Shown: positions 1,039-50,847, numbered from the stretch's first letter. The stretch: 64,000 bases of DNA from Candidatus Enterousia sp. (GCA_045648925.1 JAZROY010000004.1:74913-138912); one strand, 5' to 3'. Numbers and translations: made by a program. The notes: generated from the sequence alone by a model not told the origin.

Positions 1039-1087
1039 TACCCACCTTTAGCTAGGATAAAAATTTTATCCCGCGATGAAATTAAAT

Positions 1088-1218
1088 ATTCCCCGCCCGG
1101 GGCGGGGTGGATTGCTGGAACGACAGAGACAGCAAGACGGGGAGGGTTGAAAATTCATGGTTTGTTTTTTCACAACCCTCCCCACCGCAAGCGGTCCCCC
1201 CCGCCCCAGGCGGGGAAT
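1088..1218. repeat. GC-rich composite palindromic element (three nested or adjacent hairpins), REP/RPE-like
   Basis: ccccgcccggggcgggg (1091-1107), ggggagggttg...caaccctcccc (1139-1183), ccccgccccaggcgggg (1199-1215), flanked by aatatt/aattt. Near-identical modules occur at 15511-15531 and 32674-32765. Confidence 0.65.
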
Positions 1219-2492: not shown

Positions 2493-3377
2493 ATGAACGA
2501 ATTATTAAAAGACATTTTAAAAAACAAAGCCGCGTTATCTAAATTATTAAAAAACAAAGATAACCGGGATGTTTTGTATAACTGGCTGAAAACAGAATTG
2601 GCATATACTTCCAATGCTATCGAAGGCAACACATTAACCCGTCGTGAAACTACATTGGCGATAAACGAAAATATCACCAGCGGTTCAAAACCGATTTCGC
2701 ATTATGTTGAGGCAACAAATCATGCCAAGGCATTTGAGTTGGTTATGGAATTGTCCAAAAAGAAACATATAACAGACAACCGGGATATTTTACAAATTCA
2801 TAAATGTATATTGTCTGGTTTGGATGATGCTAATGCTGGATGTTTCAGACGGGTTTCTGTCCGACTTTCTGGTTCAAGGACGGTGTTACCAAATCCGATT
2901 AAGGTTCCCGACCTTATGGAACAATTCAACCATTGGTTGATAAGTACAGATGAAAACACATTATTCAAAGCGATAAATGCTCACTATCGATTGGTTACAA
3001 TTCATCCGTTCAAAGATGGTAATGGCAGAACGGCACGATTGCTGATGAACCTTATACTGATGCAAAATGGTTTTACACCAACAATCATCAGAAAAATTGA
3101 CCGTAAACGTTATCTGGATGCATTGGAAAAATACCAGACCACGGGCAATGCTGATTCTTATAACCGTTTTATGTTGTCTGCGTTGAATCGTTCTTTGAAA
3201 ATGGCGCTGGATATACTTGATACGAATAAACCAGATACAAAGTTAGTCACTATATCAAAATATGCAAAGATAAAAGGTGTTCCAACATCAACGATTCGTT
3301 ACTGGGTGCAATCTGGCAAGATAAAGCCAACAACATACACAGATGCTGGTTATATGATGTTCGACCCAAACAATTAA
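2493..3377 (+). CDS. Fic-family AMPylase (class II, intramolecular inhibitory helix) with C-terminal HTH domain
   Basis: Fic motif HPFKDGNGRTARLL. N-terminal inhibitory motif TSNAIEGN ((S/T)xxxE(G/N)). C-terminal LVTISKYAKIKGVPTSTIRYWVQSGKI resembles a MerR/excisionase-type HTH. Confidence 0.85.
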   Translation: MNELLKDILKNKAALSKLLKNKDNRDVLYNWLKTELAYTSNAIEGNTLTRRETTLAINENITSGSKPISHYVEATNHAKAFELVMELSKKKHITDNRDILQIHKCILSGLDDANAGCFRRVSVRLSGSRTVLPNPIKVPDLMEQFNHWLISTDENTLFKAINAHYRLVTIHPFKDGNGRTARLLMNLILMQNGFTPTIIRKIDRKRYLDALEKYQTTGNADSYNRFMLSALNRSLKMALDILDTNKPDTKLVTISKYAKIKGVPTSTIRYWVQSGKIKPTTYTDAGYMMFDPNN

Positions 3378-15487: not shown

Positions 15488-15531
15488 CCTCCCCATTCGC
15501 TTCGCGTCCACCCCGCCCCAGGAGGGGAATT
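15488..15531. repeat. GC-rich palindromic element, partial copy of the 1088-1218 family
   Basis: cctcccc...ccccgccccaggaggggaatt, nearly identical to ccccgccccaggcggggaattt at 1198-1218. Confidence 0.55.
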
Positions 15532-15680
15532 ATCTATTTCCTGTTACAGTATAAATTTTCCCGCATTATTAATTCCACTTTGATACATAATCAGGAAAAT
15601 TTTTTGTTTAAACTTTATTTTTGTGCTTGCGCGATTTTTGATATTGTGATAAAATGATAGAAAAAGGAAAGGGAAATCTC

Positions 15681-18374
15681 ATGAAAAGATTTATTAGTGT
15701 GTTAAGTGGTTTGCTGGTTTTGCCTGCTTTTGCAGAGGTTGCACCGGTTTATTACGACGAAGTTGTCGAATATTCTGATGATGCAGCAGTGGCAGAAGAT
15801 TCTGCTGAATCTGTTGCACAAAAAAATGGTGGGCAACGAACAAATATAAATCGTTCGACATCTGCCACGCGTGCAATATCATCCGGAACAAATACATCTT
15901 CGCGGACAAATACGGCTTCACGTGCGGTTGCTTCTTCGCCAAGAACGGCGACATCTGGGACAACCCGTGGCACTGTGGCGCGTACTGCGACAAAAACATC
16001 TGGGACTGCAACACGAACCAACCAGACCGCTTCACGTGCAGTTACTTCGCGTAACGCCCAAACTTCTAAACCTGTGACGGCGCGTGTCGGTGTGTATAAC
16101 AGCCAGGTTATGTCTGGCGATCGCACTGGTGGTGGTATAACGGTCATCCCTGCCTCTGGTAACACTGCATTATATAACCCAAGTGCATCGTCCCGTATTG
16201 GTGTTGCAAGTCGTCGTGCATCTTCGCGTATTTCTACTCCGGTTGCACCTGTGACAACAACGACAACTATTACCCAAGAAGATGTCACTTCTACAACCAA
16301 CAATTTAACAAATATTGCCGAATTGACCGATTATTGCAAGGCACAATATGCGGCTTGTATGGATAATTATTGTAATATATTGGATGATAATCAGGGCAGA
16401 TGTTCTTGTTCTAAAAACATCAAAAATTATGAAAAAACAGAACAAACATTGGCCCAGGCAACCGAAGATTTCCAAAATGTCGTTCAACAAATAAGATATA
16501 TCGGTTTAACATCTGACCAGATTGAAGCATTATTCACAGAAACCGAGGCAGAACTTACCATGAAATCCACAACTGATTCTTCGCGTTTGAAAAACAGTTT
16601 GGACAGCATTAAAAAGAAAATTGTTGATGTTTCAACACCATCTGCGGCAAGTAATGTCACAAGTGGTTTGACATTGGACATGAATGGTTTGTTGACGGCT
16701 GACTTTTCTGCTGGGTTTGATTTGAATTCATTCTTGAATATGAATAACAATTCATCAAGTGTTTCCAATCAACGCGGCGAACAATTATATAAAACTGCGG
16801 CAAACAGATGTAAAACAGCGGTGCTGAATTCCTGTACAACCCAGGGTATTGATGCCAATATTATAACAAATGCTTATGATTTGGAAATTGATAAGCAATG
16901 TGTGTTATATGAACGTTCTTTGAATGATGCAAATGCTGAAATGAAACAAAATGTGACAAATGCAACCACAATTTTGCAACAGGCGCGTTTGCTTTTGGCA
17001 CAAAACAAGAATTCATATGATTTACGTGGATGTATCGCGGCAATTGATTCTTGTATGCAGGACGAATATATCTGTGGAACCGATTATGAATTATGTTTGG
17101 ACCCAACTGGTAAATATTTGGCGAACGGCGAAATTGTAAAGGGTGGAACACCTGGTGTTTCTGGTGGTCAACCAAGAACAGACGATATAATGTGTGCAAC
17201 GGCTTGCGGCAACTGGGACGATTTGGGGTATGGCACAAATTATGATGATAATGATTTAGACCAATACTGCCCTGATGGTTGTGTAGATAAGGATAAATGG
17301 GTCAGTGAAGGTATGTATAATTTATATTCCACATGGGATTATAGCAACAAAAACTATAATGCGTGGAGTATGGGTGAAAAAGAAAATCTTGGTGGATATA
17401 TTGATGAAAATTTAACTAAATGGAAATCAAATTACAAAAAATCCAAAGATACTACTTATACAGACAATATGGCAATGTATTTATTGCAAAAAATTGGCTA
17501 TATCGATGATAATGACAAGGTTCACGGGATGTGTGCATCTGTCTTTAAACAATGTCAAGATTACACATATTCATCTTCGTCCAGTCGTAAATCGACCAAA
17601 AAGTATGTTCCAGATAACGAAGTTGTTCGTCAATATCTGAACAATACACTGGCCAAAATAAAGGTACAGCAAGATGCAATCATCGCCGATTATGCAGAGG
17701 GTTGCCGTAACGATGTTACATCATGTTTGTCCACAAATGGATATGATGAAACAGCACCAAATTCAACCGCCACAAAAACAGCGATTAACGCGTGTGCTGC
17801 GGAAATCACAACATGTATGTCTGTGGGCGGATATCAAATTACAGATGGTGTGAAATTGACATTGCGTGCGATGTCCGACTGGGTTGCAAGTATTATGTTA
17901 ACATGTCCAGAAAATCAATATTTGGCTGATGATGGCGCTGGTCACGTATATTGCGCATCATGTCCATCAACTACTGTGATTTTTGATGCAAATGTGGCAT
18001 GGGCTGCAAATAATCCAGATGCCCCATACGAAGCGGCTAACGCAAGTACTAAGTATGTTACAGTGTTTGGCGGGAGTTCTACTGTCCAATTAGTTTCCGC
18101 TGGTGGACGTATAACGAGTTGTTCCTGCCCAGAGGGATATGTAGATTATAGTTCTAAAGGCGATTGTCTTATAGGTTCAAATGGTGAAGTAAGAACAACA
18201 TGTACTACTGATCCTGGGACAGCCTTGGTTTCTAATGTTCATAAGGGAGACACGTTGTGTTTAGATGCCAGTGTAAGATGTATATATACCATTGGTAATC
18301 AAAATGGATACTGTGGCACCAGTCAGGCAGATGCGGAACGTATTTATAACTTATATAATAGTTCTGGAAATTAA
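15681..18374 (+). CDS. Large secreted protein: signal peptide, S/T/R-rich low-complexity region, Cys-rich C-terminal domains (unknown family)
   Basis: ATG at 15681 with aaaggaaagggaaatctcATG. Signal peptide MKRFISVLSGLLVLPAFA. Residues about 60-200 are S/T/R/A-rich (TSATRAISSGTNTSSRTNTASRAV...). More than 40 Cys in the remainder. Terminator at 18400-18430. Confidence 0.6.
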   Translation: MKRFISVLSGLLVLPAFAEVAPVYYDEVVEYSDDAAVAEDSAESVAQKNGGQRTNINRSTSATRAISSGTNTSSRTNTASRAVASSPRTATSGTTRGTVARTATKTSGTATRTNQTASRAVTSRNAQTSKPVTARVGVYNSQVMSGDRTGGGITVIPASGNTALYNPSASSRIGVASRRASSRISTPVAPVTTTTTITQEDVTSTTNNLTNIAELTDYCKAQYAACMDNYCNILDDNQGRCSCSKNIKNYEKTEQTLAQATEDFQNVVQQIRYIGLTSDQIEALFTETEAELTMKSTTDSSRLKNSLDSIKKKIVDVSTPSAASNVTSGLTLDMNGLLTADFSAGFDLNSFLNMNNNSSSVSNQRGEQLYKTAANRCKTAVLNSCTTQGIDANIITNAYDLEIDKQCVLYERSLNDANAEMKQNVTNATTILQQARLLLAQNKNSYDLRGCIAAIDSCMQDEYICGTDYELCLDPTGKYLANGEIVKGGTPGVSGGQPRTDDIMCATACGNWDDLGYGTNYDDNDLDQYCPDGCVDKDKWVSEGMYNLYSTWDYSNKNYNAWSMGEKENLGGYIDENLTKWKSNYKKSKDTTYTDNMAMYLLQKIGYIDDNDKVHGMCASVFKQCQDYTYSSSSSRKSTKKYVPDNEVVRQYLNNTLAKIKVQQDAIIADYAEGCRNDVTSCLSTNGYDETAPNSTATKTAINACAAEITTCMSVGGYQITDGVKLTLRAMSDWVASIMLTCPENQYLADDGAGHVYCASCPSTTVIFDANVAWAANNPDAPYEAANASTKYVTVFGGSSTVQLVSAGGRITSCSCPEGYVDYSSKGDCLIGSNGEVRTTCTTDPGTALVSNVHKGDTLCLDASVRCIYTIGNQNGYCGTSQADAERIYNLYNSSGN

Positions 18375-31703: not shown

Positions 31704-32570
31704 TTATTGCACACTGAAAAATGGTGCACGAAAACCATCAGAATAAGAATGAAGATAACTAGAACAAGACGCAGCGCAATTGGCTAGGCACTCCTGTGTA
31801 TCATTATCATACCCTGTTGGATGTAACACCCACACAGAACCAGATAATACGCACGATGGACCACCATTTGACGTATAATTGGTTGCCTTGCACCAACAAT
31901 ATTCTCCATCTTGCGTCGAAGTTATTTCACTGTCTGTCGCTGTCCAATTTGAACTGTTATTATCGTATGCACCATCATTAGTATTCCCCGCTTTGGTACT
32001 GCATTTTGAAATACCTTTTATCGTACCATAATTAAATCCTATTGCCCATTCACCGGCACTAAAGCCATCAAAATAACTATCGCTACAATCATTACTGCCT
32101 ACCTCTGTATCATTGTTCCAATAGCTACACAGGTATTGCCAATTCCATTGGACAGAGTAGTTCATACCAAGTTCCCATATTCCTTCTATTGTTGCATCCA
32201 AACTTGATAAACTGCATTGTTGTACCTGTTGACCAGCACCAGCTTGTCTTACCCGCCAGCCCTTAAATGTATATCCTGTTTTTGTCGGTATTGTTGATGG
32301 TGGGGTTAATGTTCCGTCATATACGCAACTTTGTGATACACTTGGCACATTTTGTATTTCCGTGTCACCATTATACCAATGAAGTTGTATTGTGTTTGCC
32401 TGCCAATTTGCTTGCAGGTTTGATGTGCCAGAATATGTTTGTAATGGATTATTTCTACAATTCGCTGTGGATGCACTTGATGGGATATCTGGGTCGGCAA
32501 AACTTGGGGCGGAAAAAATAAAAGAAATTGCAAAACAAATCGTTCCGATTTGTTTTATGCTTAGCAACAA
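31704..32570 (-). CDS. Cys-rich secreted protein with a (CA)16 tract in its 5' region. Probable phase-variable surface or secreted protein. Contains a GYTFKGW motif reminiscent of Listeria-Bacteroides (Flg_new) repeats
   Basis: The ORF track starts at TTG 32570 with no Shine-Dalgarno. The hydrophobic signal-peptide core is SLLLSIKQIGTICFAISFIFSAPSFA. The only Shine-Dalgarno plus ATG (aaaggagaaataaaATG, ATG 32641-32639) is upstream of the repeat and currently out of frame. Confidence 0.6.
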   Translation of the reverse strand: MLLSIKQIGTICFAISFIFSAPSFADPDIPSSASTANCRNNPLQTYSGTSNLQANWQANTIQLHWYNGDTEIQNVPSVSQSCVYDGTLTPPSTIPTKTGYTFKGWRVRQAGAGQQVQQCSLSSLDATIEGIWELGMNYSVQWNWQYLCSYWNNDTEVGSNDCSDSYFDGFSAGEWAIGFNYGTIKGISKCSTKAGNTNDGAYDNNSSNWTATDSEITSTQDGEYCWCKATNYTSNGGPSCVLSGSVWVLHPTGYDNDTQECLANCAASCSSYLHSYSDGFRAPFFSVQ

Positions 32571-32572
32571 AC

Positions 32573-32611
<39 letters not shown>

Positions 32612-32673
32612 GTTTCTGCGGGTTTCAGCGTTTTTGACCATTTTATTTCTCCTTTCTTTGTTTCATTTTTTTA

Positions 32674-32765
32674 TTCCCCGCCCGGGGCGGGGGGGACCAC
32701 GAAGTGGTGGGGAGGGTTCACCCCCCTCCCCGACTTCGTCGGTACTCCCCCACTGGGGGGAGAAT
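32674..32765. repeat. GC-rich composite palindromic element (same family as 1088-1218)
   Basis: ttccccgcccggggcggggg, then nested gaccacgaagt...acttcgtcggtac and ggggaggg...ccctcccc, then ctcccccactggggggag. Confidence 0.65.
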
Positions 32766-32823: not shown

Positions 32824-32958
32824 TTCCCCTCTATGGAGGGGCCTGTCCACAGTAGCCTTTGGCGAAGGCGGATGGCGCGAAGCGACGGGGTGGTTTACAT
32901 AAAAACGAATTATCTGACCACCTCCCCGGCTCCGCCGGTACTCCTCCAACGGAGGAGA
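32824..32958. repeat. Second GC-rich hairpin cluster in the same divergent intergenic region
   Basis: cccctctatggagggg, ccggctccgccgg and ctcctccaacggaggag hairpins. Confidence 0.55.
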
Positions 32959-33037: not shown

Positions 33038-33778
33038 TTGTCTAGAATCAAATTGAATAATGTGGGAGATAATGTGGCAAAAGTAATACAACCGCCGGTT
33101 TTGTTGTCACGCGTGTTGACGTTCGTGTTCGCAACGTCTGTTGTTGTTTTGGCAACTTTGATTATTACATTGGTAAAAATTATGCCACTGGAACGACCAG
33201 AAGTTTTCTTTTTATCAACGCACACACTGTCTGTAAATGCCACAATTGAACCATTGGTTCCAAATTCGGCAAATCAACAGGCACTGGAACAATATGAAAA
33301 GGGCTTTGTTCGTGAATATATAATCGCACGAAATACTTTGATGCCAAATTCTGGATTGACATTGAAAAATTGGGCAAATGTGGTAAAACCTTGGTCAAAT
33401 AATCGTGTATATTCCGCATTTACACGCACCACATTATACAAAGAATATAGTGATAGTGGTGTTTCATCGGCAATTTCTTGTTCTGTCAATTTTTCTGACA
33501 AAAACAAAGAGCAGCCCGTCGTAAAAACCGGACACAATTCTCAATACGATGAATATACTGTCACTTTTGCGTGGGTTTGTAAAAATAGTGGTGGACAAGC
33601 CACACAAAAAAATTATAAGATACGATTAAGAATACAATCTGTTTTGGATGACAAAGTGTCGGACACATTGGAAAACCTGAACAAATTGCGTGACAATCCT
33701 TTGGGAATACGGGTTGTAGAATACACAATTTTGGATGGCGATGGCGACCCTTTGAATTCTGACAAATACTCTTTGTAA
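33038..33778 (+). CDS. virB8: Type IV secretion system protein VirB8 homolog
   Basis: Short N-terminus, one TM (VLTFVFATSVVVLATLIITLV), periplasmic domain with the conserved NPLG(I/F)xV motif (LRDNPLGIRVVEY). The probable true start is GTG 33077, preceded by gggaga. Confidence 0.75.
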   Translation: MSRIKLNNVGDNVAKVIQPPVLLSRVLTFVFATSVVVLATLIITLVKIMPLERPEVFFLSTHTLSVNATIEPLVPNSANQQALEQYEKGFVREYIIARNTLMPNSGLTLKNWANVVKPWSNNRVYSAFTRTTLYKEYSDSGVSSAISCSVNFSDKNKEQPVVKTGHNSQYDEYTVTFAWVCKNSGGQATQKNYKIRLRIQSVLDDKVSDTLENLNKLRDNPLGIRVVEYTILDGDGDPLNSDKYSL

Positions 33779-33815
33779 AAGGGTTGGGTAATTCATAAGG
33801 AAAGGATTATAAAAG

Positions 33816-35306
33816 ATGACTTTTATAAATTTTTGCAAAATAAATGTTTCATTACTGGCAATTTTGTGCTGTGTGTCCCCTGCGGCGGCTGTTTATCAGA
33901 TGGCATGGGACAACCCAAACATGAATATGGCAAGCGGTTCTTTGAAGCCAGGATATGCGAATTTAACTTGGTCTACGGGAACAGTATTACCGATAAAAAC
34001 CCGCGCTGGGATGGCAACTTTGGTGACTTTACCAAACGGTGAAAAGATTGCGGACATTGTTGCTGGAAACGAAGCATTGTTCCATATTGATGCGAATCCT
34101 GGCGATTCGTATATGTATATAACCCCAACCGATGAAAACAATGGTAATGATACCAATATGATTGTGACCGGTGAATCTGGGAACAAATATATTTTCTATT
34201 TGCGCGCTTATCCTATTAATTCCAGCGATATCACATATTCCCAGGTTGATGTTTCCGCGGGCTCTGGGGCAAATGTTGTTATTTCAAACAGTGTACCCGC
34301 GCCATCTGGATCTATGGGGTCTATATTCAAAAAGTCTACATCAAAAACATCAACTATTGGTGTTGATGGTGAAGATTATGGTTGGATAAAAACAATGAAA
34401 ATCGACCCTTCGGAATTCCGTTTTGATTTGGATATATTTGTTCCAAACCCAGACGATTATGTAATTGCACCAGAACGCGTATGGCGCGACAGAATCTTTA
34501 CATACATTGATTTCGGGGACAAGGTTATATCTATGACACAAAGACCGGTTGTATCATTATTGGTCGAAGGTGGCGAAAGCCCTGTTGGTTTCCGCACAGA
34601 CGGTGAAGACGGTCGTTTATTGATTGTCGAAGCGGTCGGCGATTTGGTTTTGCGTAGTGGTCAAAGAATTGTTTGTATCAAAAAACGTGCTAAACCTTTC
34701 TTGATTGCCGATACCGCATCTGTTATGGCACTGGCTGAGGCAAATGTTGCACAATCATTGGCGGCGAATCAATCTTTGAATACGATTGCGTATAATGATG
34801 AAATGTATGCGATAAACGCAAATGTCAATGATTATTACAGCACTACACCAACATATGTTTATAATCAACCAACTGATTTGATGTATGCAACTGGTGGGAT
34901 GCAATCTGTTTCTGTATCTGGTGGTCCAAATATGATTCCATCAGAACGCGCAACCGCTGGTTCTTATTTACCGCAATCAAATATACCACTGATTACCAGC
35001 AATCAAACCGGGGTTGCGGTCGAATTGAAATCAGATACTTCGGTAAAGGCATTAAATGATTACTGGACAGAATTGCTGGCTAAATTCAGCGGCGAAGATG
35101 GTGATGGTATACTGACACCTTATAAGAACAGTGTATTTTTTGCGGTTGATGAACAAGGTGTTGGTGATTTGGGTTCAGAATCTGCAACAGCGCGTCTGTA
35201 TCGCTTGCGTATTGGACCTTTGTCTGATATAGATGCCGCACAAAAATTGTGCGACCAGTTGTTAAAGTTCAGTGGTGCCAGTTGCTATGTAGTCAGGATA
35301 CAATAA
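33816..35306 (+). CDS. virB9: VirB9/TrbG/CagX-family T4SS outer-membrane core protein with extra C-terminal SPOR (peptidoglycan-binding) domain
   Basis: Signal peptide. N-terminal domain GMATLVTLPNGEKIADIVAGNEALFHIDANPGDSYMYITPTDENNGNDTNMIVTGESGNKYIFYLRA (TrbG/VirB9 pattern). C-terminal beta-domain DRIFTYIDFGDKV...LRSGQRIVCI. Then about 200 extra aa ending in a SPOR-like YRLRIGPLSDIDAAQKLCDQLLKFSGASCYVVRI. Confidence 0.75.
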   Translation: MTFINFCKINVSLLAILCCVSPAAAVYQMAWDNPNMNMASGSLKPGYANLTWSTGTVLPIKTRAGMATLVTLPNGEKIADIVAGNEALFHIDANPGDSYMYITPTDENNGNDTNMIVTGESGNKYIFYLRAYPINSSDITYSQVDVSAGSGANVVISNSVPAPSGSMGSIFKKSTSKTSTIGVDGEDYGWIKTMKIDPSEFRFDLDIFVPNPDDYVIAPERVWRDRIFTYIDFGDKVISMTQRPVVSLLVEGGESPVGFRTDGEDGRLLIVEAVGDLVLRSGQRIVCIKKRAKPFLIADTASVMALAEANVAQSLAANQSLNTIAYNDEMYAINANVNDYYSTTPTYVYNQPTDLMYATGGMQSVSVSGGPNMIPSERATAGSYLPQSNIPLITSNQTGVAVELKSDTSVKALNDYWTELLAKFSGEDGDGILTPYKNSVFFAVDEQGVGDLGSESATARLYRLRIGPLSDIDAAQKLCDQLLKFSGASCYVVRIQ

Positions 35307-35309
35307 AAA

Positions 35310-37721
35310 ATGAAATATATCAAAGAACAATATGATGATTTTAGAAATAACACGCCGACATATGTCCAATGGCTGTTGTTGGCTGTGGCTTTCTTGATTG
35401 TGATTATATTGTTGACTTTGCTGTTGTCGCACAAAAAAGAAGACAATACACCAGAGGTGGAAAATCAACATATTGAATTTAATGTCACACCACAAAATAT
35501 AAAATTTGATAATGTCAAAGTTGGCGAATCAGAACATGCAAAAGTTAATATTTCTGTGAATGTGCCTGTTATCATAGAAAGTGTGAAAATATATAATAAC
35601 GATTTCACAACACCTAATAATTGTGTGTATGACGAAGTAGATTCATGTAATATAAATATAATTTATACACCAACTGCGCCACAAAAATTATCAAATACAA
35701 CTTTGGTAATCACATGGTATGATGTAGATTCAGAAGATACCGTAAACACCGAAGAAATCCCTGTGGTGTTCAGTTCTTATAAAGAACCAGCAAAAGTGGT
35801 TGAACCAGAAGTAATACCAGAACCAGAACCACCTTTTGTTGATGAACCAGAACCGGAACCTGTGACACCTGTGGAAGAAATAAAAACTATCGCAATACCA
35901 AACCCAATAAGACAGCCAGAGCCAGAACCAGAACCAATTGTTCGTGCGAATCCTTGTTCTGAATTTGCTATACCAGGGTATGATGCATCTGGTCATCAGA
36001 TTGGTTGGATAAAACCAGAACGCGGAACAAATTATTTCTATCCTTTTTCGGATAAAACTTGTTCAAATCCGACTGGCAAATACGATATGGCAACCGGGGT
36101 TATTTTATCTTTGAAAGATGGTTCCAGAATCGGAACAGATTCAGACCATATCGGATACAGAAATGTTCGTGACAGAAATCTTAGTATGCCAAAATTATCA
36201 ATGCCTGGCTCGTCTTCTGTTTCTGCAAGAAATGGCGAATTCGATAGTTCCGCAAAATGGGTCGCAACAGGCAGTAATGGTCGCACAATCGCAACAAAAC
36301 ATGATGATAGTAGAAAATTCGACAGAAATCGTAAAAATACAGCAAACGAGGCTTTACTGGTTGGCTCTGGATTTGGTGCTGGGGAATCTGTAACTTCTTC
36401 TTTACCGTATGACAGAACATTTATCCTTCGGCAATTTAAACCTATTCCAGCAACCATTGTTTCAGAAGTGCGCGCAGACCCAAGTGTATACGGATGCACA
36501 AAGGCGGGCGATAAATGTGACCCAAAGAAAAATTACAGCATCCCTGTGCGTGCAACAGTTGACAGAAATGTTTATTCTGATGATGGGCGCACAATAATAT
36601 TACCAACAGGGACATTGTTAATGGGATATTTGGATGGTGATTTGCCCGGTCCGTACCAAGCATTTGGTCGTATGAGTATAAAGTGGTATCAATTCATCCG
36701 CCCAGATGGTGTTGAATTTAATTTCGCCGATGGTCAAGATCCGTATTCTGCTGATGCCCAGGGGCGTATGGGGGTCCCAGGTCACGGCAGCACTGATTAT
36801 ATCGAACAGATGGTTATGCCGTTGTTAACATCATTGGTCCCCGCGGCTGTAAATATGATTGCACCTATTGCTGATACAGTCATAAATCAAATAGATTTGG
36901 ATAATAACACTATCGTTCAATCTGGAACGATTCGTTCATCGGAAATGGCAAAACAAGATGTTATCAATACATGGAATAAAATCACACAAAAATTGTTGGT
37001 TGATGCGATTGATAATACTGTGCCACCGTTTTCTATTGCTGCTGGAACGCGTATAAATGTGTTTTCACCGGTCGATTTGATTGTGTCTTGCCAAGACAAA
37101 GGTATAAATGGAAAATGTTCTGTTATAACACCTGGCTCTGATAAACGTCGTAAATGGTCTGATTTAAAGGGCAAAGCAAGTTTTGATCCAAATGATGGTT
37201 CATGGGTTGGTCAGGTGCGTTCGTTTGATTTGATGCAATATTGCGACCAAGACAGCAAAGACAAATGGACAATCAAAAACGATGGATCTTGGACAGAATC
37301 TGGATACGAATACAGAACAGTCCTGTTATATTGCGAATCCTTGAATTACGCAGCTGTAAACAACGCGAAACAATCTGTGTATAACCAAAATGTTCAACAG
37401 CAAGCGACCAAGAAATATGGCACAGCAGAATATGATCAAAAAACAAACACTTTGAAACAATACGGGACAGAAGAACAGACCAAGGCATATAATACCGAAG
37501 TACTTGGGTTGGAATACGATGATGAAGGCAATATAAAGAATCCATTTGCAAAACCAGACGCTACTGTTGACACCCAAGATATTTTGACCTGTGATGACGG
37601 GTTGGCACCTGATACCAATGGTTGTTGCCCCGGCGAAACATTTACTGATATGGGTGAAGATGGATGGAATTGTTGCCCGGATACTGGTGGTGATTGTTTC
37701 CCACCAATAACAGTTGAATAA
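35310..37721 (+). CDS. virB10: VirB10/TrbI-family T4SS core protein, unusually long (803 aa) with an inserted region and a Cys-rich C-terminal extension
   Basis: N-terminal TM (WLLLAVAFLIVIILLTLLL). Pro-rich linker (PEVIPEPEPPFVDEPEPEPVTP...QPEPEPEP). TrbI barrel domain (ILPTGTLLMGYLDGDLPGPYQAFGRMSIKWYQFIRPDGVEFNFADGQDPYSADAQGRMGVPGHGSTDYIEQ...). About 230 extra C-terminal aa with a CC..CC..C cluster. Confidence 0.75.
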   Translation: MKYIKEQYDDFRNNTPTYVQWLLLAVAFLIVIILLTLLLSHKKEDNTPEVENQHIEFNVTPQNIKFDNVKVGESEHAKVNISVNVPVIIESVKIYNNDFTTPNNCVYDEVDSCNINIIYTPTAPQKLSNTTLVITWYDVDSEDTVNTEEIPVVFSSYKEPAKVVEPEVIPEPEPPFVDEPEPEPVTPVEEIKTIAIPNPIRQPEPEPEPIVRANPCSEFAIPGYDASGHQIGWIKPERGTNYFYPFSDKTCSNPTGKYDMATGVILSLKDGSRIGTDSDHIGYRNVRDRNLSMPKLSMPGSSSVSARNGEFDSSAKWVATGSNGRTIATKHDDSRKFDRNRKNTANEALLVGSGFGAGESVTSSLPYDRTFILRQFKPIPATIVSEVRADPSVYGCTKAGDKCDPKKNYSIPVRATVDRNVYSDDGRTIILPTGTLLMGYLDGDLPGPYQAFGRMSIKWYQFIRPDGVEFNFADGQDPYSADAQGRMGVPGHGSTDYIEQMVMPLLTSLVPAAVNMIAPIADTVINQIDLDNNTIVQSGTIRSSEMAKQDVINTWNKITQKLLVDAIDNTVPPFSIAAGTRINVFSPVDLIVSCQDKGINGKCSVITPGSDKRRKWSDLKGKASFDPNDGSWVGQVRSFDLMQYCDQDSKDKWTIKNDGSWTESGYEYRTVLLYCESLNYAAVNNAKQSVYNQNVQQQATKKYGTAEYDQKTNTLKQYGTEEQTKAYNTEVLGLEYDDEGNIKNPFAKPDATVDTQDILTCDDGLAPDTNGCCPGETFTDMGEDGWNCCPDTGGDCFPPITVE

Positions 37722-37724
37722 CAT

Positions 37725-37810
37725 AAAAAATCCGCCTTGGCGGATTTTTTAATATGAGATAAAAACCGATTCGCTTTGTATAGAACAAAAACGATTAGCG
37801 AATCGGTTTT
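37725..37810 (+). terminator. Two tandem rho-independent terminators after virB10
   Basis: aaaaaatccgccttggcggatttttt (37725-37750) and aaccgattcgct-N-agcgaatcggttttt (37761-37810). Confidence 0.75.
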
Positions 37811-37926
37811 TCGATTCGGTTTTCTATTTATAGTTGTATTGTTTTACACGATTCAATTTTTATTTTATTTTTCATTGTATCTTTGAATAGGTACAAATAC
37901 TTAATAAAAATAAAAAGGAGAAAAAC

Positions 37927-38280
37927 ATGAATACTAATACATTACAAAACACAAATATATCAACATCTGAAAAATTTCAAAATGCAGAACAATTATGGTT
38001 TTGGTTTTTATATTCAAAATCTATTCAAAACGGATTTAATCGAAATTGTTCTTCGATTCGCAGACCATGTGAATTATTGGATGTAGAAACATTAATAACA
38101 AAATTGTATTTATGTGGAAAATTATCAGAAGAACAATTAAATGTTATGAAAAAATTCGGCGACAAAAGACGCGCACCACACCAATATATTTATTCTGAAA
38201 ATCGCGCAGCCGCGCTTTGGAAATCCGCGATGGATGTATTGACTGAATATGCGCATAAAAAAGACTGGTTGATCGATTAA
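37927..38280 (+). CDS. Hypothetical protein (117 aa)
   Basis: Good Shine-Dalgarno (aaaaaggagaaaaacATG). No recognisable motif. Confidence 0.35.
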   Translation: MNTNTLQNTNISTSEKFQNAEQLWFWFLYSKSIQNGFNRNCSSIRRPCELLDVETLITKLYLCGKLSEEQLNVMKKFGDKRRAPHQYIYSENRAAALWKSAMDVLTEYAHKKDWLID

Positions 38281-38347
38281 TATTATTTTCTGATTTATGG
38301 GTATGGGAGATAAATCAGAATCTATATTTTTAAAAAAGGTTGTTATT

Positions 38348-38695
38348 ATGATTATATACATTGGTTTTTCAACGAAAACTCATAAAATTTTGGTACGTAT
38401 TTTTTGTCGTCATTTTAAACACTGTGCGCCCATTGTTATTAAAAAAAACAACTATAAAATATATCAATTCACAAACAGAAAAACCATTAACATCATCACA
38501 ATAAAAAGACACGATATAAAAATTCTGGAACAATATGGCTGGCGATTCATCAAATACAACATTAAATCTGTCCCACAAAACGCGTTAAGCATACATACAT
38601 TAACATGTGTTCAATTTACAAAAAAATTTTGCAGAATTAAAAAAATCACGATACAAACCCCAGATGCACTTTTGAAATATTTGATACAAAAATAA
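38348..38695 (+). CDS. Hypothetical protein (about 115 aa from the internal ATG)
   Basis: ATG 38348 is preceded by aaaaagg. Basic protein, no recognised motif. A bidirectional terminator (aaaaatgcccatttgggcatttttt) follows. Confidence 0.3.
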   Translation: MIIYIGFSTKTHKILVRIFCRHFKHCAPIVIKKNNYKIYQFTNRKTINIITIKRHDIKILEQYGWRFIKYNIKSVPQNALSIHTLTCVQFTKKFCRIKKITIQTPDALLKYLIQK

Positions 38696-44057: not shown

Positions 44058-45170
44058 CTAGTGAAATGTATAGCAATCTATACCATTGGCACCAGCCATA
44101 CTTTTTGTGCTTTGCGCGGCACTTTCAGAAAGCCCATTTATGCGAACCCGATAAAGCCCAGCATCATTTCTTTCAACATTTGCAGTCATACCGGTCACTT
44201 GGTAGACACGCGCCGCCTGTTTATTGGCAGATTCATACGAAGAAAACGCACCACACTGCACCCCAACACTTCCAGAAGAATAAGAAACCGTTTTCGTTTC
44301 ATTTGTTGCATATTTTACCATTGGATTAGATTGCGTTGGCGCGACCTTATGCGCGGATTCTGTATAATTTGTTCCACCAACACCTAATTTTTTAAAACCA
44401 ATATTTAACATTTTTGCAGCCGTATTTGCGCGAACATCTTTGTTTTCAGCACCCAATACCACAGCAATAAGATGATAACCATCGCGATTCGCCGTCGCAA
44501 CAAGCGAATATTTTGATTTATTGGTGAACCCTGTTTTCATACCATCGCATCCCGGATATGACCCCAACAACCGATTGCCATTTGTATATGTTTTCCCATT
44601 ATATGTCCAAGTTTTTATACCAAAATATTTCCAATACTGTGGAAAATGTTTATATACCGCCATGGACAATAACGCAATGTCACGCGCAGTCGACATATGG
44701 TCATCGTTTGGTAAACCCGAAGAATTTTCAAAATTAGTATGTTCCAGCCCAATCTCATTCGCGACACGCGTCATCAATGTTGCAAAATTGCCTTCTTTGC
44801 CACCTTTTAAATTTTCCGCCAATACACGCGCAACATCATTTGCAGAATGCACAGCAACCGCCTTAATCGCATCTTCAACCTTTATCTTGCTACCCGCGGT
44901 CAGTCCCAGTTTCACAGGCTGAGCCTCTGTGGCATATTTTGACACAATTAAATAATCATCCAAATGAAGCCGACCATGTTCCAATGCATCAAAAGTCAAA
45001 TAAAGCGTCATTATTTTTGTTAAACTGGCCGGATAATTCATTTGATTTGCGTTTTCTTGATAAAGGACACGACCAGAATCTATATCTGCGACCAACACAG
45101 CCCTATAATCTGCGGCATTTGCAGCACATAATGTGAATACCGATATAAAAAACGCAAAAACTCTCTTCAT
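44058..45170 (-). CDS. D-alanyl-D-alanine carboxypeptidase (PBP5/6-like, S11) with C-terminal SPOR domain
   Basis: Signal peptide. SLTKIMT (SxxK), SANDVA (SxN), KTGFT (KTG). C-terminal GLYRVRINGLSESAAQSTKSMAGANGIDCYTF resembles SPOR. Confidence 0.85.
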   Translation of the reverse strand: MKRVFAFFISVFTLCAANAADYRAVLVADIDSGRVLYQENANQMNYPASLTKIMTLYLTFDALEHGRLHLDDYLIVSKYATEAQPVKLGLTAGSKIKVEDAIKAVAVHSANDVARVLAENLKGGKEGNFATLMTRVANEIGLEHTNFENSSGLPNDDHMSTARDIALLSMAVYKHFPQYWKYFGIKTWTYNGKTYTNGNRLLGSYPGCDGMKTGFTNKSKYSLVATANRDGYHLIAVVLGAENKDVRANTAAKMLNIGFKKLGVGGTNYTESAHKVAPTQSNPMVKYATNETKTVSYSSGSVGVQCGAFSSYESANKQAARVYQVTGMTANVERNDAGLYRVRINGLSESAAQSTKSMAGANGIDCYTFH

Positions 45171-48891: not shown

Positions 48892-50847
48892 ATGAAAGAA
48901 ATCTTAGGAAATCAATATAAAAACATATTTCTTTGGTCGCCATTTATTATGGCTTTTGGCGCAGCATTATACTTTTCATATGGGACTGAGCCAAATTTTC
49001 ATTTCCCAATTTTAATCACGATTTTATCGGCAGCCATTATATGGAAAAAGAAAAATATTTTGACGCGCGCGATTGCCATATTTTTATTTGGGTTCTTTTA
49101 CGCGATGTCTTTTACTCATATTATTGATACACCTGTTGCACGCGATTCTTTTGGTGCAATTCCAATTTCTGGTAAAATCAAAGATATAGATTATACGACA
49201 GACAAAACGCGTTTAACTATTCGTATTCCAACAGAACAAATAAAAACTAATTCATCCAAAAAATTTGCAAATATTCGTATATCTATATCTGATGATACCA
49301 AGGACATAAATATTGGCGATACAATCACTGGAAATGCGATATTATTTCATCCATCATCAAAATATGTTCCGTCATCTTTTGATTATGCGCGTTGGGCATA
49401 TTTTAATGGTATTTCTGCAACTGGATTTTTTGAAAATTATGAAATAACGAAATCTGCTGATAATCCAAACACCAGAGCATATATTCATAACAAAGCGAAT
49501 TCATTTTTAACCGACTCTCTGGTTTTGGGATATAAAAAAACAATCCCAGAAAATGAAAGTAATATTTGGAAATCTGTTGGCATTGGGCATGTATGGTCAA
49601 TCAGTGGTTTTCATATGACCTTGGTCGGTGGGTGGTTGTTTGCAATATTCTATTTAATATTCAGATTATTTCCATACATTACAAAACGCGTGCCAGCAAA
49701 ATATCCCGCCATTATTTGCGCATGGATTGGTTTATTGTTTTATTTGTTTATTTCTGGAATCAGTGTTGCCACGGTTCGTGCATTTTTAATGACAACTTTA
49801 ATTTTTATCGCGATACTTTTGGGACGTGGTGTTTTATCTTTGCGTAACGCAGCATTGGCATTTTTGATAATATTTTTAATAAACCCTTTTTATGTGATGA
49901 ACGCAGGATTTCAATTATCATTTGCGGCGATATTTGGTCTGCTTTGGTTCTTTGGAGATACAGAATATAAAAAGCGCACATTTATAATGCGACATTTACA
50001 TATTTTATATCTATCTTTGATGACTGCAGTAATCGCAACAATTTTCACAATGCCTTTTATAATCGCCCATTTTGGATATATTCCATTATATGGTCTGATT
50101 GGGAATTTGATTTTACTGCCCATATTTTCAATTTTAATTATGCCGTTGATTATGATTGGAACAATTTGTGCATTGTTTAATTATCATTTTTTAATAGATT
50201 GTGCGCACAATATTTATCGATTAAGTTTATCTTTGGCAACACATATAACCAATATGCCGTACGCAAACATACATATACCGCATATTTCTAATACAGTTTT
50301 AATGTTATGTATAATCGGTTTATTATGTTTAATTTTAATTGTTAAAACAGATTCAAAGAATTTGTTCATCAAAAACCTAAACTATGTTTTATGTGTTTTA
50401 TTTGTCGGAACAGCAATTTTAATAAATGTTTCAACACCGCGACCACTATTTTATGCGACAGACGACCACCAACTGGTTGGATTTGTTGTTAATGATAAAT
50501 TACAATTTAATCATGCAAAGATGTCTAAACATTATTTTGCTTTTTCCAGTTGGTATGAATTTAATAATGAAAAAATACCAGATAAAAATAAAAGATACAA
50601 ATGCGATCACGGACTCTGCAAATACAATACACCAAAATGGAATTTGGTTTACATGCAAAATTTTACAGCATTAATGAATAATATTGAAGATGTGTGTCGC
50701 GATAAATCTGTCGATTATATAGTCACTACATTTGAAACAAGTGCACCGAATTGTCATGCCAAAATTTTAACAGATGGAATTATCATTTATCCAAACGGCA
50801 AATTCACAAAAATCATTAATCGCCGTCCTTGGCATATTCAGCACTGA
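48892..50847 (+). CDS. comEC: ComEC/Rec2-family DNA internalization competence protein
   Basis: Multi-TM. DUF4131-like N-terminus. Competence domain ...GHVWSISGFHMTLVGGWLF. Confidence 0.85.
   Translation: MKEILGNQYKNIFLWSPFIMAFGAALYFSYGTEPNFHFPILITILSAAIIWKKKNILTRAIAIFLFGFFYAMSFTHIIDTPVARDSFGAIPISGKIKDIDYTTDKTRLTIRIPTEQIKTNSSKKFANIRISISDDTKDINIGDTITGNAILFHPSSKYVPSSFDYARWAYFNGISATGFFENYEITKSADNPNTRAYIHNKANSFLTDSLVLGYKKTIPENESNIWKSVGIGHVWSISGFHMTLVGGWLFAIFYLIFRLFPYITKRVPAKYPAIICAWIGLLFYLFISGISVATVRAFLMTTLIFIAILLGRGVLSLRNAALAFLIIFLINPFYVMNAGFQLSFAAIFGLLWFFGDTEYKKRTFIMRHLHILYLSLMTAVIATIFTMPFIIAHFGYIPLYGLIGNLILLPIFSILIMPLIMIGTICALFNYHFLIDCAHNIYRLSLSLATHITNMPYANIHIPHISNTVLMLCIIGLLCLILIVKTDSKNLFIKNLNYVLCVLFVGTAILINVSTPRPLFYATDDHQLVGFVVNDKLQFNHAKMSKHYFAFSSWYEFNNEKIPDKNKRYKCDHGLCKYNTPKWNLVYMQNFTALMNNIEDVCRDKSVDYIVTTFETSAPNCHAKILTDGIIIYPNGKFTKIINRRPWHIQH

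What the first reader, a model, noticed from the sequence alone, without database searches (positions are those of the whole stretch)
33038..37721. virB8-virB9-virB10 T4SS core operon with non-canonical architecture: VirB9-SPOR fusion and an 803-aa VirB10 with Cys-rich C-terminal extension
Three co-directional, tightly packed genes. virB10 starts 4 nt after the virB9 stop.
- VirB8: TM plus the NPLG(I)xV motif.
- VirB9: N- and C-terminal TrbG/VirB9 domains.
- VirB10: TM, Pro-rich EPEPEP linker and TrbI barrel.

Two unusual things:
- The VirB9 homolog is about 200 aa longer than usual and ends in a SPOR-like peptidoglycan-binding domain (YRLRIGPLSDIDAAQKLCDQLLKFSGASCYVVRI).
- The VirB10 homolog is roughly twice the usual size. 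It has about 220 aa inserted between the Pro-rich linker and the barrel, and about 230 extra C-terminal residues ending in a CC..CC..C cluster (CDDGLAPDTNGCCPGETFTDMGEDGWNCCPDTGGDCFPP).

No virB7 lipoprotein, virB11 ATPase or virD4 follows. Two terminators close the operon at 37725-37810.

My inference is that a SPOR domain tethering the outer-membrane core to peptidoglycan could replace VirB7. I do not know of that as a described arrangement.
Basis: partly seen in the sequence, partly recalled or inferred. Interest (0 to 1): 0.75.

Follow-up and report, generated by a model that had tools for sequence, protein, structure and literature searches.

The report
Scattered T4SS core genes, gut symbiont
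These three genes encode the membrane-spanning scaffold (VirB8, VirB9, VirB10) of a type IV secretion machine in a tiny-genome gut bacterium (Candidatus Enterousia). Their odd extra domains are typical of a large, undescribed alphaproteobacterial branch of these machines, not a one-off invention.

Summary
Window 33038-37721 carries intact virB8 (246 aa), virB9 (496 aa) and virB10 (803 aa), each above Pfam's curated cut-off. VirB9 ends in a SPOR-like domain, also above cut-off.

The host is Candidatus Enterousia (order Rs-D84, genomes of about 0.9 Mb). The trio sits between secE/tRNA-Trp and yidC in all 85 related loci. VirB9 is under stronger purifying selection than YidC (dN/dS 0.03 against 0.08-0.10).

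The interpretation needs correcting. The SPOR-like tail on VirB9 and an Ig-like (ASH/PapD-like) domain on VirB10 are shared by a broad alphaproteobacterial T4SS lineage. That lineage includes an Erythrobacter aureus plasmid with a full gene set: relaxase, VirB2-B11 and VirD4. Nine distinct relatives with the SPOR-like tail still encode a VirB7-like lipoprotein just upstream of virB8, so SPOR did not arise to replace VirB7.

Three things are specific to Enterousia:
- the trio is separated from all other T4SS genes
- no VirB7-like gene sits at the ancestral position
- VirB10 has a Cys-rich C-terminal extension

I could not test whether VirB4 and the other partners lie elsewhere in the genome. 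This is a new variant of a known kind, of moderate interest.

The parts
33038..33778 (+). virB8 homologue (246 aa): bitopic inner-membrane protein with a TM helix at about residues 22-47 and a periplasmic VirB8 domain. The NPLG motif is at residues 220-223 (nt 33695-33706). The true start may be an internal TTG or GTG a few codons downstream.
   Evidence: Pfam VirB8 33.9 bits, above the 23.2 cut-off. Present in all 85 related loci at 33-83% identity. dN/dS about 0.15.
33816..35306 (+). virB9 homologue (496 aa): signal peptide (about 1-25), N-terminal domain (about 41-145), low-complexity linker, C-terminal beta domain (about 181-295), helix and variable linker (296-380), then the SPOR-like domain.
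   Evidence: Pfam CagX at residues 49-290, 73.6 bits. NCBIfam VirB9 55 bits, below its equivalog cut-off. Weak PDB sequence match to X. citri VirB9, 6gyb. Residues 181-320 are 86-100% identical to the window sequence, per 20-residue block, across 80 sequences. dN/dS 0.03 overall and below 0.01 in the C-terminal domain.
35001..35303 (+). SPOR-like C-terminal domain of VirB9 (residues about 396-496). Predicted to bind peptidoglycan. It has two family-wide conserved Cys (C479, C490).
   Evidence: Pfam SPOR 24.8 bits in the whole protein and 27.7 bits in the isolated C-terminus, against a 21-bit cut-off. The match covers only profile positions 39-76. All 39 of 39 members hit. In relative L088 a sub-threshold match spans profile positions 5-76. 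AlphaFold2 secondary structure is beta-alpha-beta-beta-alpha-beta, at low confidence. hhalign against bona fide Dac-SPOR domains gives P 2e-4 and probability 45%. dN/dS about 0.01.
35310..37721 (+). virB10 homologue (803 aa): short cytoplasmic tail, TM helix (18-40), Ig-like domain, Pro-rich linker (about 161-215), small beta domain (216-283), variable linker, TrbI barrel (about 361-595), C-terminal extension.
   Evidence: Pfam TrbI 57.6 bits, above the 35 cut-off. NCBIfam VirB10 59.8 bits and ComB10 42.7 bits, both below their cut-offs. Weak PDB sequence matches to ComB10, CagY and TrwE. Present in all 85 loci, cut short by a contig end in a few.
35463..35789 (+). Ig-like (ASH/PapD-like/MSP-fold) domain of VirB10, residues 52-160, just outside the inner membrane. 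It has two conserved Cys (C105, C113).
   Evidence: AlphaFold2 pLDDT 73-89 for this segment. Foldseek PDB hits to CEP192 ASH and HYDIN PapD-like domains, E 5e-5 to 6e-4. Weak NCBIfam 'choice-of-anchor D' hit. Homologous N-domains are visible in VirB10 of L086, L088, L089, L090, L092 and E. aureus.
36798..37019 (+). Antenna projection of the VirB10 barrel: two long helices (residues 497-528 and 541-570) predicted to line the outer-membrane pore.
   Evidence: AlphaFold2 secondary structure. 65-88% column identity across 75 sequences. The role is inferred from solved VirB10/TraF/TrwE structures (established knowledge).
37095..37709 (+). Enterousia-specific C-terminal extension of VirB10 (residues about 596-800). 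It ends in a Cys knot, T-C-x2-G-x2-PD-x-NGCC-x-GE-x2-TDMGE-x-G-x-NCCP-x2-GGDCFPP (residues 760-799).
   Evidence: Invariant Cys at 594, 603, 645, 675, 761, 772, 773, 788, 789 and 796 in 48 sequences. pLDDT 60-79. Absent from VirB10 of L086, L089, L090 and L092, and the E. aureus tail has no Cys cluster. No paralogue in the window.
37724..37818 (+). Two hairpin plus T-run sites that close the operon (37724-37751, which is bidirectional, and 37799-37818).
   Evidence: These are consensus matches only.
37927..38695 (+). Two conserved small ORFs downstream (117 aa and about 115-132 aa). They have their own ribosome-binding site and no known domain. They travel with the trio in Enterousia but not in outgroups. 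Whether they belong to the system is unknown.
   Evidence: Found in 77 and 74 of 85 loci. No Pfam or NCBIfam hit. d117 dN/dS 0.08-0.10. Different genes follow virB10 in L090.

Best explanation
The three genes encode the envelope-spanning scaffold of a chromosomal, vertically inherited P-type (VirB/Trb-like) type IV secretion system. The host is a Candidatus Enterousia bacterium (Alphaproteobacteria, order Rs-D84), a gut or rumen organism with a genome of about 0.9 Mb that is predicted to depend on partner cells.

Proposed mechanism:
- VirB10 is anchored in the inner membrane by one helix. It rises through an Ig-like domain, a Pro-rich linker and a small beta domain to the TrbI barrel. The barrel's two-helix antenna forms the outer-membrane pore.
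- VirB9 (N- and C-terminal beta domains) builds the ring around the barrel.
- VirB8 forms the periplasmic and inner-membrane collar.
- VirB9's C-terminal SPOR-like domain ties the ring to peptidoglycan. Because SPOR domains prefer denuded glycan, it may place the machine at septa or new poles.

The SPOR-like tail and the Ig-like domain are hallmarks of a whole alphaproteobacterial T4SS lineage. That lineage also includes complete conjugative plasmid systems.

Enterousia-specific features:
- the trio is isolated among housekeeping genes (secE/tRNA-Trp on one side, yidC on the other)
- no VirB7-like gene lies next to virB8
- VirB10 carries a Cys-rich, probably disulfide-bonded, extension that would decorate the periplasmic face of the outer ring

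Shown: family membership, domain map, conservation, synteny, and the gene sets of relatives. Inferred: peptidoglycan binding, assembly geometry, and that VirB2/3/4/6 (and possibly VirB11) are encoded elsewhere in the genome, as in the scattered Rickettsiales rvh system. The substrate (effectors, or DNA uptake or release) is unknown.
For: Family and domain assignments above curated cut-offs.

Host identity and lifestyle: 286 GTDB species genomes carry a relative, the best 80 being gut or rumen alphaproteobacterial MAGs, many named Ca. Enterousia. Genome size and predicted dependence come from PMC12306168.

Synteny is invariant in 85 loci.

Purifying selection is strong. VirB9 dN/dS is 0.03, against 0.08-0.10 for YidC. 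The VirB9 C-terminal and SPOR-like domains are at or below 0.01, with dS of 0.35-1.2. This rules out decay.

Relatives place the same VirB9 and VirB10 architecture inside T4SS gene sets:
- L088 has VirB2, VirB3, VirB4, four unannotated genes (239, 245, 220 and 605 aa), then VirB8, VirB9 and VirB10.
- L086 and L089 have VirB7-like, VirB8, VirB9-SPOR, a giant VirB10 and VirB11.
- The E. aureus plasmid has a MobA/L relaxase, VirB2 to VirB11 and VirD4.

The nearest outgroups also keep isolated islands among housekeeping genes: B8-B9-B10 in L090/L091 and B9-B10 in L092.

A low-GC ruminant alphaproteobacterial lineage carries a lone virB3-virB4 island between parAB and ileS/gidA. Its VirB4 belongs to the L088-like subfamily (52-54% identity). 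This shows that scattering occurs in this T4SS lineage.
Against: No VirB4, VirB2/3/6, VirB11 or VirD4 gene was shown in any Enterousia genome. Only about 7% of this genome (the window) and 10 kb either side of the trio in relatives could be read.

The metagenome scan with a VirB4 profile returned few low-GC hits, and none could be tied to Enterousia. They share no genes with the window, and tetranucleotide signatures did not discriminate.

The published genome survey of Rs-D84 does not mention a T4SS.

The SPOR assignment rests on half of the Pfam profile. The VirB9 structure model was poor (pLDDT 39.7) and its fold search found no SPOR structure.
Confidence: 0.68

Rival explanations
1. Stand-alone, ATPase-less complex. 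Enterousia has lost VirB4 and the rest and keeps only VirB8/9/10 as a T4SS-derived, envelope-spanning channel or outer-membrane-to-peptidoglycan-to-inner-membrane tether. It would have been co-opted for another essential role, such as envelope integrity, passive uptake or cell-cell contact.
For: No other T4SS gene lies in the 64-kb window or within 10 kb of the trio in 85 loci. VirB9 is more conserved than YidC, as expected for a core housekeeping role. Few VirB4 relatives of suitable GC turned up in the metagenome scan. The Rs-D84 genome paper lists no T4SS.
Against: No functional T4SS-type machine without VirB4 is known (established knowledge). All relatives read far enough show VirB4 and/or VirB11. 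Absence was never tested genome-wide. The scan patterns were narrow: two peptide motifs only.
Confidence: 0.13
2. ComB-like DNA-uptake T4SS. The trio corresponds to comB8-comB9-comB10 and works with ComEC to import DNA as a nucleotide source, in an organism that cannot make nucleotides and reportedly lacks type IV pili.
For: The operon content (B8-B9-B10 with no B11 or D4) mirrors the H. pylori comB8-10 layout (own knowledge). The best PDB sequence match of VirB10 is ComB10, 2bhv, E 0.008. ComEC is encoded at 48892-50847. Rs-D84 lacks nucleotide biosynthesis.
Against: NCBIfam ComB10 scores 42.7 bits against a 300-bit cut-off and is weaker than the generic VirB10 model. The closest relatives are alphaproteobacterial systems with VirB11, and in plasmids with a relaxase and VirD4, not the epsilonproteobacterial ComB. 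No ComB4, ComB2, ComB3 or ComB6 was found.
Confidence: 0.1
3. In Enterousia specifically, the pre-existing SPOR-like tail made VirB7 dispensable, so the lipoprotein was lost.
For: There is no VirB7-like ORF upstream of virB8 in 72 of 73 Enterousia loci, none in the window, and none in the nearest outgroup L090. The VirB9 C-terminal domain, which is the VirB7-binding domain in model systems, is almost invariant.
Against: In nine distinct relatives the SPOR-like tail and VirB7 coexist (plus L088), so the tail does not make VirB7 redundant in general. A 60-aa gene could simply have moved, like the other T4SS genes. A near-invariant VirB9 C-terminal domain argues for a conserved partner rather than a lost one.
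Confidence: 0.2
4. Decaying remnant of an integrated conjugative element.
For: The set is incomplete. Variable DNA lies just upstream: a Cys-rich secreted protein gene, a (GT)16 repeat and GC-rich palindromic elements.
Against: The ORFs are intact and syntenic in 85 loci from many species. dN/dS is 0.03-0.16. There is no integrase, relaxase or tRNA-flanked island structure, and GC is the same as the surroundings.
Confidence: 0.01

Closest known systems
Unstudied P-type T4SS on alphaproteobacterial megaplasmids, for example Erythrobacter aureus YH-07 plasmid NZ_CP031358.1. VirB4 relatives also occur on Microvirga sp. VF16 and Sphingosinicella sp. BN140058 plasmids.
   Same: VirB9 has the homologous C-terminal SPOR-like domain (432 aa; iterative HMM E 3e-25). 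VirB10 has a TM helix plus an Ig-like N-domain before the barrel. The gene order is VirB8-VirB9-VirB10.
   Different: The plasmid system is complete and contiguous: MobA/L relaxase, VirB2, B3, B4, B5-like, B6-like, a VirB7-like lipoprotein, B11 and VirD4. Its VirB10 is only 529 aa and has no Cys-rich tail. Enterousia has only the trio, on the chromosome.
Chromosomal T4SS of uncultured gut Alphaproteobacteria (loci L086/L087, L088, L089; NCBI name 'TrbG/VirB9 family P-type conjugative transfer protein')
   Same: This is the closest sequence subfamily. VirB9-SPOR is 493-547 aa, the VirB10 N-terminal Ig-like domain is present, and the setting is chromosomal.
   Different: These loci keep the VirB7-like lipoprotein and have VirB11 and/or VirB2-3-4 nearby. 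Their VirB10 is giant (at least 920 aa and up to 2213 aa) with 'DxNGNVIG' repeats rather than a Cys-rich tail.
Rickettsiales vir homolog (rvh) T4SS (PMC2653234)
   Same: A chromosomal T4SS of reduced-genome Alphaproteobacteria. Its genes are scattered in islands among housekeeping genes, vertically inherited and strongly conserved.
   Different: The rvh island is virB8-B9-B10-B11-virD4 with RvhB7 upstream and duplicated B4/B6/B8/B9 genes (own knowledge and PMC2653234). No SPOR tail or Ig-like VirB10 domain is known there. No particular sequence affinity was seen here.
Minimal VirB/D4 outer-membrane core complexes (pKM101 TraN/O/F, R388 TrwH/F/E, X. citri VirB7/9/10)
   Same: The same three protein families and the expected topology. 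There are weak direct sequence matches to X. citri VirB9 (6gyb) and TrwE (7o3j).
   Different: Those VirB9 proteins are about 250-300 aa with no peptidoglycan-binding domain. Their VirB10 is about 380-400 aa. A VirB7 lipoprotein is an obligate third core subunit.
Peptidoglycan-binding accessory subunits of other T4SSs (Legionella DotK and Brucella VirB12, both OmpA-like; own knowledge)
   Same: They would work alike, as a peptidoglycan-binding module attached to the outer-membrane core.
   Different: Those are separate OmpA-like lipoproteins, not a SPOR-type domain fused to VirB9.
H. pylori ComB DNA-uptake T4SS (comB6-10 operon)
   Same: B8-B9-B10 are adjacent with no B11 or D4. ComB10 is the best PDB sequence hit for VirB10.
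   Different: The NCBIfam ComB10 cut-off is far from met. The phylogenetic neighbourhood differs. ComB has a ComB7 lipoprotein and no SPOR tail.

Membership tests
VirB9/TrbG/CagX (PF03524) | Profile match above the curated cut-off, covering both beta domains | tested here: met
   73.6 bits against 34.2, residues 49-290, profile positions 5-197 of 198. The NCBIfam VirB9 equivalog is not met (55 against 217.7 bits), so this is a divergent member.
VirB9/TrbG/CagX (PF03524) | Two beta-sandwich domains seen in structure | tested here: inconclusive
   The AlphaFold2 model is poor (pLDDT 39.7). Foldseek gave only weak, non-specific hits.
VirB10/TrbI (PF03743) | Profile match above cut-off, N-terminal TM helix, Pro-rich region, and a C-terminal barrel with a two-helix antenna | tested here: met
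   57.6 bits against 35. TM helix at 17-39 and helices at 497-528 and 541-570 in the model. EPEPEP runs are read directly. NCBIfam VirB10 is below cut-off (59.8 against 220).
VirB8 (PF04335) | Profile match above cut-off, one TM helix, and the NPxG motif | tested here: met
   33.9 bits against 23.2. NPLG is at residues 220-223 and is conserved.
SPOR domain (PF05036) | Profile match above the gathering score | tested here: met
   24.8 and 27.7 bits against 21. All 39 of 39 Enterousia sequences hit. Only profile positions 39-76 are aligned. L088 gives positions 5-76 at 17.7 bits.
SPOR domain (PF05036) | Beta-alpha-beta-beta-alpha-beta (RNP-like) fold | tested here: inconclusive
   The predicted secondary structure has the right order, but pLDDT is 42-62. 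There was no SPOR hit in Foldseek PDB or in a PDB profile search. hhalign against Dac-SPOR gives 45% probability.
SPOR domain (PF05036) | Binds denuded peptidoglycan glycan strands | not testable with these tools
   This needs a sacculus pull-down with the purified domain.
Complete P-type T4SS | VirB4-family ATPase encoded in the same genome | not testable with these tools
   None in the window. Whole Enterousia genomes could not be read. The candidate low-GC virB3-virB4 islands found in ruminant MAGs could not be linked to Enterousia.
Complete P-type T4SS | VirB7 lipoprotein partner of VirB9 | tested here: not met
   Absent upstream of virB8 in 72 of 73 loci and absent from the window. Present at that site in most related systems read. 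The rest of the genome was not searched.
H. pylori-type ComB system | ComB10 equivalog score and a ComB4/2/3/6 set | tested here: not met
   ComB10 scores 42.7 bits against a 300-bit cut-off. No ComB partners are in the window.
Rickettsiales rvh T4SS | virB8-B9-B10-B11-virD4 island, with RvhB7 and duplicated B8/B9 | tested here: not met
   No B11 or D4 follows. A terminator and unrelated small ORFs come next, then yidC. No duplicate lies in the window. The resemblance is in organisation only.

The most novel reading that the evidence does not exclude
Enterousia, and perhaps its nearest relatives L090 and L092, may have discarded VirB4 and every other T4SS part. In that case they keep a peptidoglycan-anchored VirB8/9/10 ring as an ATPase-independent, essential envelope-spanning conduit or tether. 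It could serve, for example, for uptake from or attachment to a partner cell. That would be the first T4SS core co-opted as a stand-alone machine, and it would explain why VirB9 is more conserved than YidC.
Probability: 0.12. Interest if true: 0.8.

Novelty: new variant of a known kind. Interest (0 to 1): 0.45.

Why it matters
It defines a large, apparently undescribed alphaproteobacterial T4SS lineage. In this lineage the core ring protein VirB9 carries its own peptidoglycan-binding-type domain, and VirB10 carries an Ig-like domain.

The lineage ranges from conjugative megaplasmids of cultured bacteria to the chromosomes of abundant gut and rumen symbionts with genomes below 1 Mb.

For T4SS structural biology, it offers a natural case of a core complex wired to the cell wall.

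For gut microbiology, it flags a strongly selected secretion-type apparatus in Ca. Enterousia. That organism's partner-dependent lifestyle is unexplained and it lacks standard transporters (PMC12306168). The apparatus is a concrete candidate for how these cells interact with partners.

Tried and rejected
- AlphaFold2 of VirB9 with a 41-sequence alignment gave pLDDT 39.7. Its Foldseek PDB search was uninformative.
- A PDB profile search with the SPOR-like region returned only spurious antibody hits.
- hhalign of the Enterousia-only C-terminal alignment against Dac-SPOR gave 13% probability. With the broader family alignment it gave 45%.
- Extending the window through the look-up of encoding contigs on edge genes failed, because the proteins are not on record.
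- Linking the low-GC virB3-virB4 islands (L099-L104, L177) to Enterousia failed four ways: shared genes (none), cluster names (only '[Alphaproteobacteria bacterium]'), sample identifiers and tetranucleotide signature (not discriminating).
- The Rs-D84 paper has no held supplements, and the earlier Enterousia paper is not held.
- Rejected as conserved partners: secreted Cys-rich proteins upstream of virB8. They occur in only a few species; most hits were antisense ORFs.
- Rejected: a frameshift artefact and a decaying remnant.

Full report
**What is there.** The window has three tightly packed + strand ORFs at 33038-33778 (246 aa), 33816-35306 (496 aa) and 35310-37721 (803 aa). Pfam places them in VirB8 (33.9 bits, cut-off 23.2), CagX/VirB9 (73.6 bits, cut-off 34.2, residues 49-290) and TrbI/VirB10 (57.6 bits, cut-off 35, residues 379-586). 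It also finds SPOR at VirB9 residues 457-494 (24.8 bits, cut-off 21). NCBIfam recognises VirB9 and VirB10 only below its equivalog cut-offs. PDB sequence matches are marginal: X. citri VirB9, ComB10, CagY and TrwE at E 0.008-0.06. These are therefore divergent members. Two hairpin plus T-run sites follow virB10.

**Host and context.**
- The surrounding genes are housekeeping. Upstream on the minus strand lie rpoC-rpoB-rplL-rplJ-rplA-rplK-nusG-secE-tRNA-Trp. Downstream lie yidC-lspA-kefB-rsmA-recR and a SPOR-bearing D,D-carboxypeptidase.
- A scan of GTDB species genomes found relatives of this VirB9 in 286 of them. The best 80 are gut and rumen MAGs, many named Candidatus Enterousia. They include a circular 958,618-bp MAG.
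- Enterousia (order Rs-D84) has 0.75-1.0-Mb genomes, lacks most biosynthesis and standard transporters, and is predicted to depend on other cells (PMC12306168).
- In all 85 loci fetched the order is secE // virB8-virB9-virB10 followed by two small ORFs // yidC.

**Conservation.** VirB9 is 68-97% identical across these loci, where YidC is 53-95%. Residues 181-320 (C-terminal domain) are 86-100% identical to the window sequence, per 20-residue block, in 80 sequences. The SPOR-like region is 81-90% identical, and the Cys-rich end of VirB10 is conserved. Pairwise dN/dS against three close relatives:

| Gene or region | dN/dS |
|---|---|
| VirB9 | 0.03 |
| VirB9 C-terminal and SPOR-like domains | at or below 0.01 (dS 0.35-1.2) |
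| YidC | 0.08-0.10 |
| VirB10 | 0.12-0.16 |
| VirB8 | 0.15 |

The genes are functional and under protein-level selection. They are not remnants or frameshift artefacts.

**Domain maps.**
- VirB9: signal peptide, N-domain, low-complexity linker, C-domain, helix and variable linker, then a roughly 100-aa C-terminal domain.
  - All 39 Enterousia C-termini hit Pfam SPOR, but only through the second half of the profile.
  - A relative (L088) gives a sub-threshold match over profile positions 5-76.
  - The predicted secondary structure is beta-alpha-beta-beta-alpha-beta, at low confidence.
  - Profile-profile comparison with genuine Dac-SPOR domains gives P 2e-4 and 45% probability.
  - I call it SPOR-like: supported by sequence, fold unconfirmed.
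- VirB10 (model pLDDT 57, confident in parts):
  - TM helix, residues 17-39
  - Pro-rich linker
  - small beta domain, 216-283
  - variable linker
  - barrel with antenna helices at 497-528 and 541-570
  - a C-terminal extension of about 205 aa ending in a Cys knot

**The wider family.**
- An exhaustive profile search found 515 representative relatives. Many are 430-630 aa. An iterated HMM shows the same C-terminal domain in 26 of 53 of them.
- L088 carries VirB2, VirB3, VirB4 and four unannotated genes (239, 245, 220 and 605 aa), then VirB8, VirB9 and a VirB10 of at least 920 aa.
- L086/L087, a very common gut lineage, and L089 carry a VirB7-like lipoprotein, VirB8, VirB9-SPOR, a giant VirB10 and VirB11.
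- The nearest VirB4 relatives in plasmids of cultured bacteria lead to Erythrobacter aureus YH-07. Its plasmid has MobA/L, VirB2, B3, B4, B5-like, B6-like, a 68-aa lipoprotein, B8, B9 (432 aa, same SPOR-like tail), B10 (529 aa, same TM plus Ig-like N-domain), B11 and VirD4.
- The two 'non-canonical' decorations are thus lineage traits of an alphaproteobacterial T4SS clade that includes ordinary conjugation systems.
- Only the Cys-rich VirB10 tail is Enterousia-specific.

**VirB7.** A small lipoprotein lies immediately upstream of virB8 in most systems of this clade. It has a lipobox followed by G-x-G ... LK-x-SPCAC or a degenerate Cys-containing variant of that motif. This holds whether or not VirB9 has the SPOR-like tail. 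Tail and lipoprotein coexist in nine distinct relatives: L086, L088, L089, L093, L130/131, L134/149, L143 and L165. So the tail did not evolve as a VirB7 substitute. In Enterousia, no such ORF lies upstream of virB8 (72 of 73 loci) or anywhere in the window. The nearest outgroup L090 also lacks it there. Loss and relocation cannot be told apart with the data I could reach.

**Partners.**
- No other T4SS gene is in the window.
- The closest outgroups also keep isolated islands among housekeeping genes: B8-B9-B10 in L090/L091 and B9-B10 in L092.
- A metagenome scan with a VirB4 profile of this clade recovered low-GC (0.29-0.31) contigs, including a 270-kb rumen scaffold. There virB3-virB4 sit alone between parAB/DUF2062 and ileS/gidA. 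Cluster members come from ruminant alphaproteobacterial MAGs.
- This shows Rickettsiales-like scattering (PMC2653234) within the clade. I could not link these contigs to Enterousia.

**Verdict.** The locus is most likely the core-scaffold island of a scattered, chromosomal T4SS of Ca. Enterousia (confidence about 0.68).
- The SPOR-like tail probably anchors the ring to peptidoglycan, perhaps at septa or poles. This is an inference.
- The stand-alone, ATPase-less reading remains possible (about 0.12) and would be much more interesting.
- No paper in the searchable library mentions both VirB9 and 'SPOR domain'. None of the listed papers that mention both type IV secretion and 'SPOR domain' appears relevant. 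The lineage therefore appears undescribed, although databases already annotate its proteins as TrbG/VirB9.
- This is a new variant of a known kind. Interest 0.45.

Noticed in passing
window 32578-32610 (repeat); gene at 31704-32570, minus strand: A (GT)16 microsatellite lies immediately 5' of the start of a 288-aa secreted, Cys-rich protein gene with a weak Listeria-Bacteroides repeat hit. This is a candidate slipped-strand phase-variable promoter or 5' region. The gene is absent from this position in most related genomes.
   Followed up: partly
window 1078-1111, 1193-1218, 15507-15540, 32673-32698; hairpins at 32745-32762 and 32941-32957: A dispersed GC-rich palindromic element (ATTCCCCGCCCGGGGCGGGG...) occurs in AT-rich intergenic DNA. 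It looks like a REP or MITE. Two copies or related hairpins sit just upstream of virB8.
   Followed up: no
window 15654-18374, + strand: A 906-aa secreted protein with a Ser/Thr/Arg-rich N-region and many Cys has no Pfam hit. It is probably a surface protein.
   Followed up: no
window 37927-38280 and 38297-38695, + strand: Two small ORFs (117 aa and about 115-132 aa) with no known domain accompany the trio in 77 and 74 of the 85 Enterousia loci. The first is under strong purifying selection (dN/dS about 0.09). Outgroups have different genes here.
   Followed up: partly
window 48892-50847, + strand: A ComEC competence channel gene lies in a genome reported to lack nucleotide biosynthesis. This bears on a possible DNA-uptake role for the T4SS.
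   Followed up: no
window 44058-45170, minus strand: A D,D-carboxypeptidase (Peptidase_S11) is fused to a canonical SPOR domain (31.4 bits). It is conserved next to recR in related loci. I used it as the SPOR reference.
   Followed up: partly
L086 11641-20761; L089 9072-15713; L088 11483-14242: Related gut Alphaproteobacteria have giant VirB10 proteins, from at least 920 aa up to 2213 aa, filled with 'D-x-NGNVIG-x-V' tandem repeats between the Ig-like domain and the barrel. In L086 the gene is split into two overlapping ORFs.
   Followed up: no
L177 9693-12436 (also L099-L104, L178): A low-GC ruminant alphaproteobacterial lineage has a lone virB3-virB4 island between parAB/DUF2062 and FYDLN/hsp20/ileS/gidA on contigs up to 317 kb. 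It could be the missing ATPase module of Rs-D84 bacteria. It remains unlinked.
   Followed up: partly
window 2493-3377, + strand: A Fic domain protein is fused to a MerR-type HTH.
   Followed up: no
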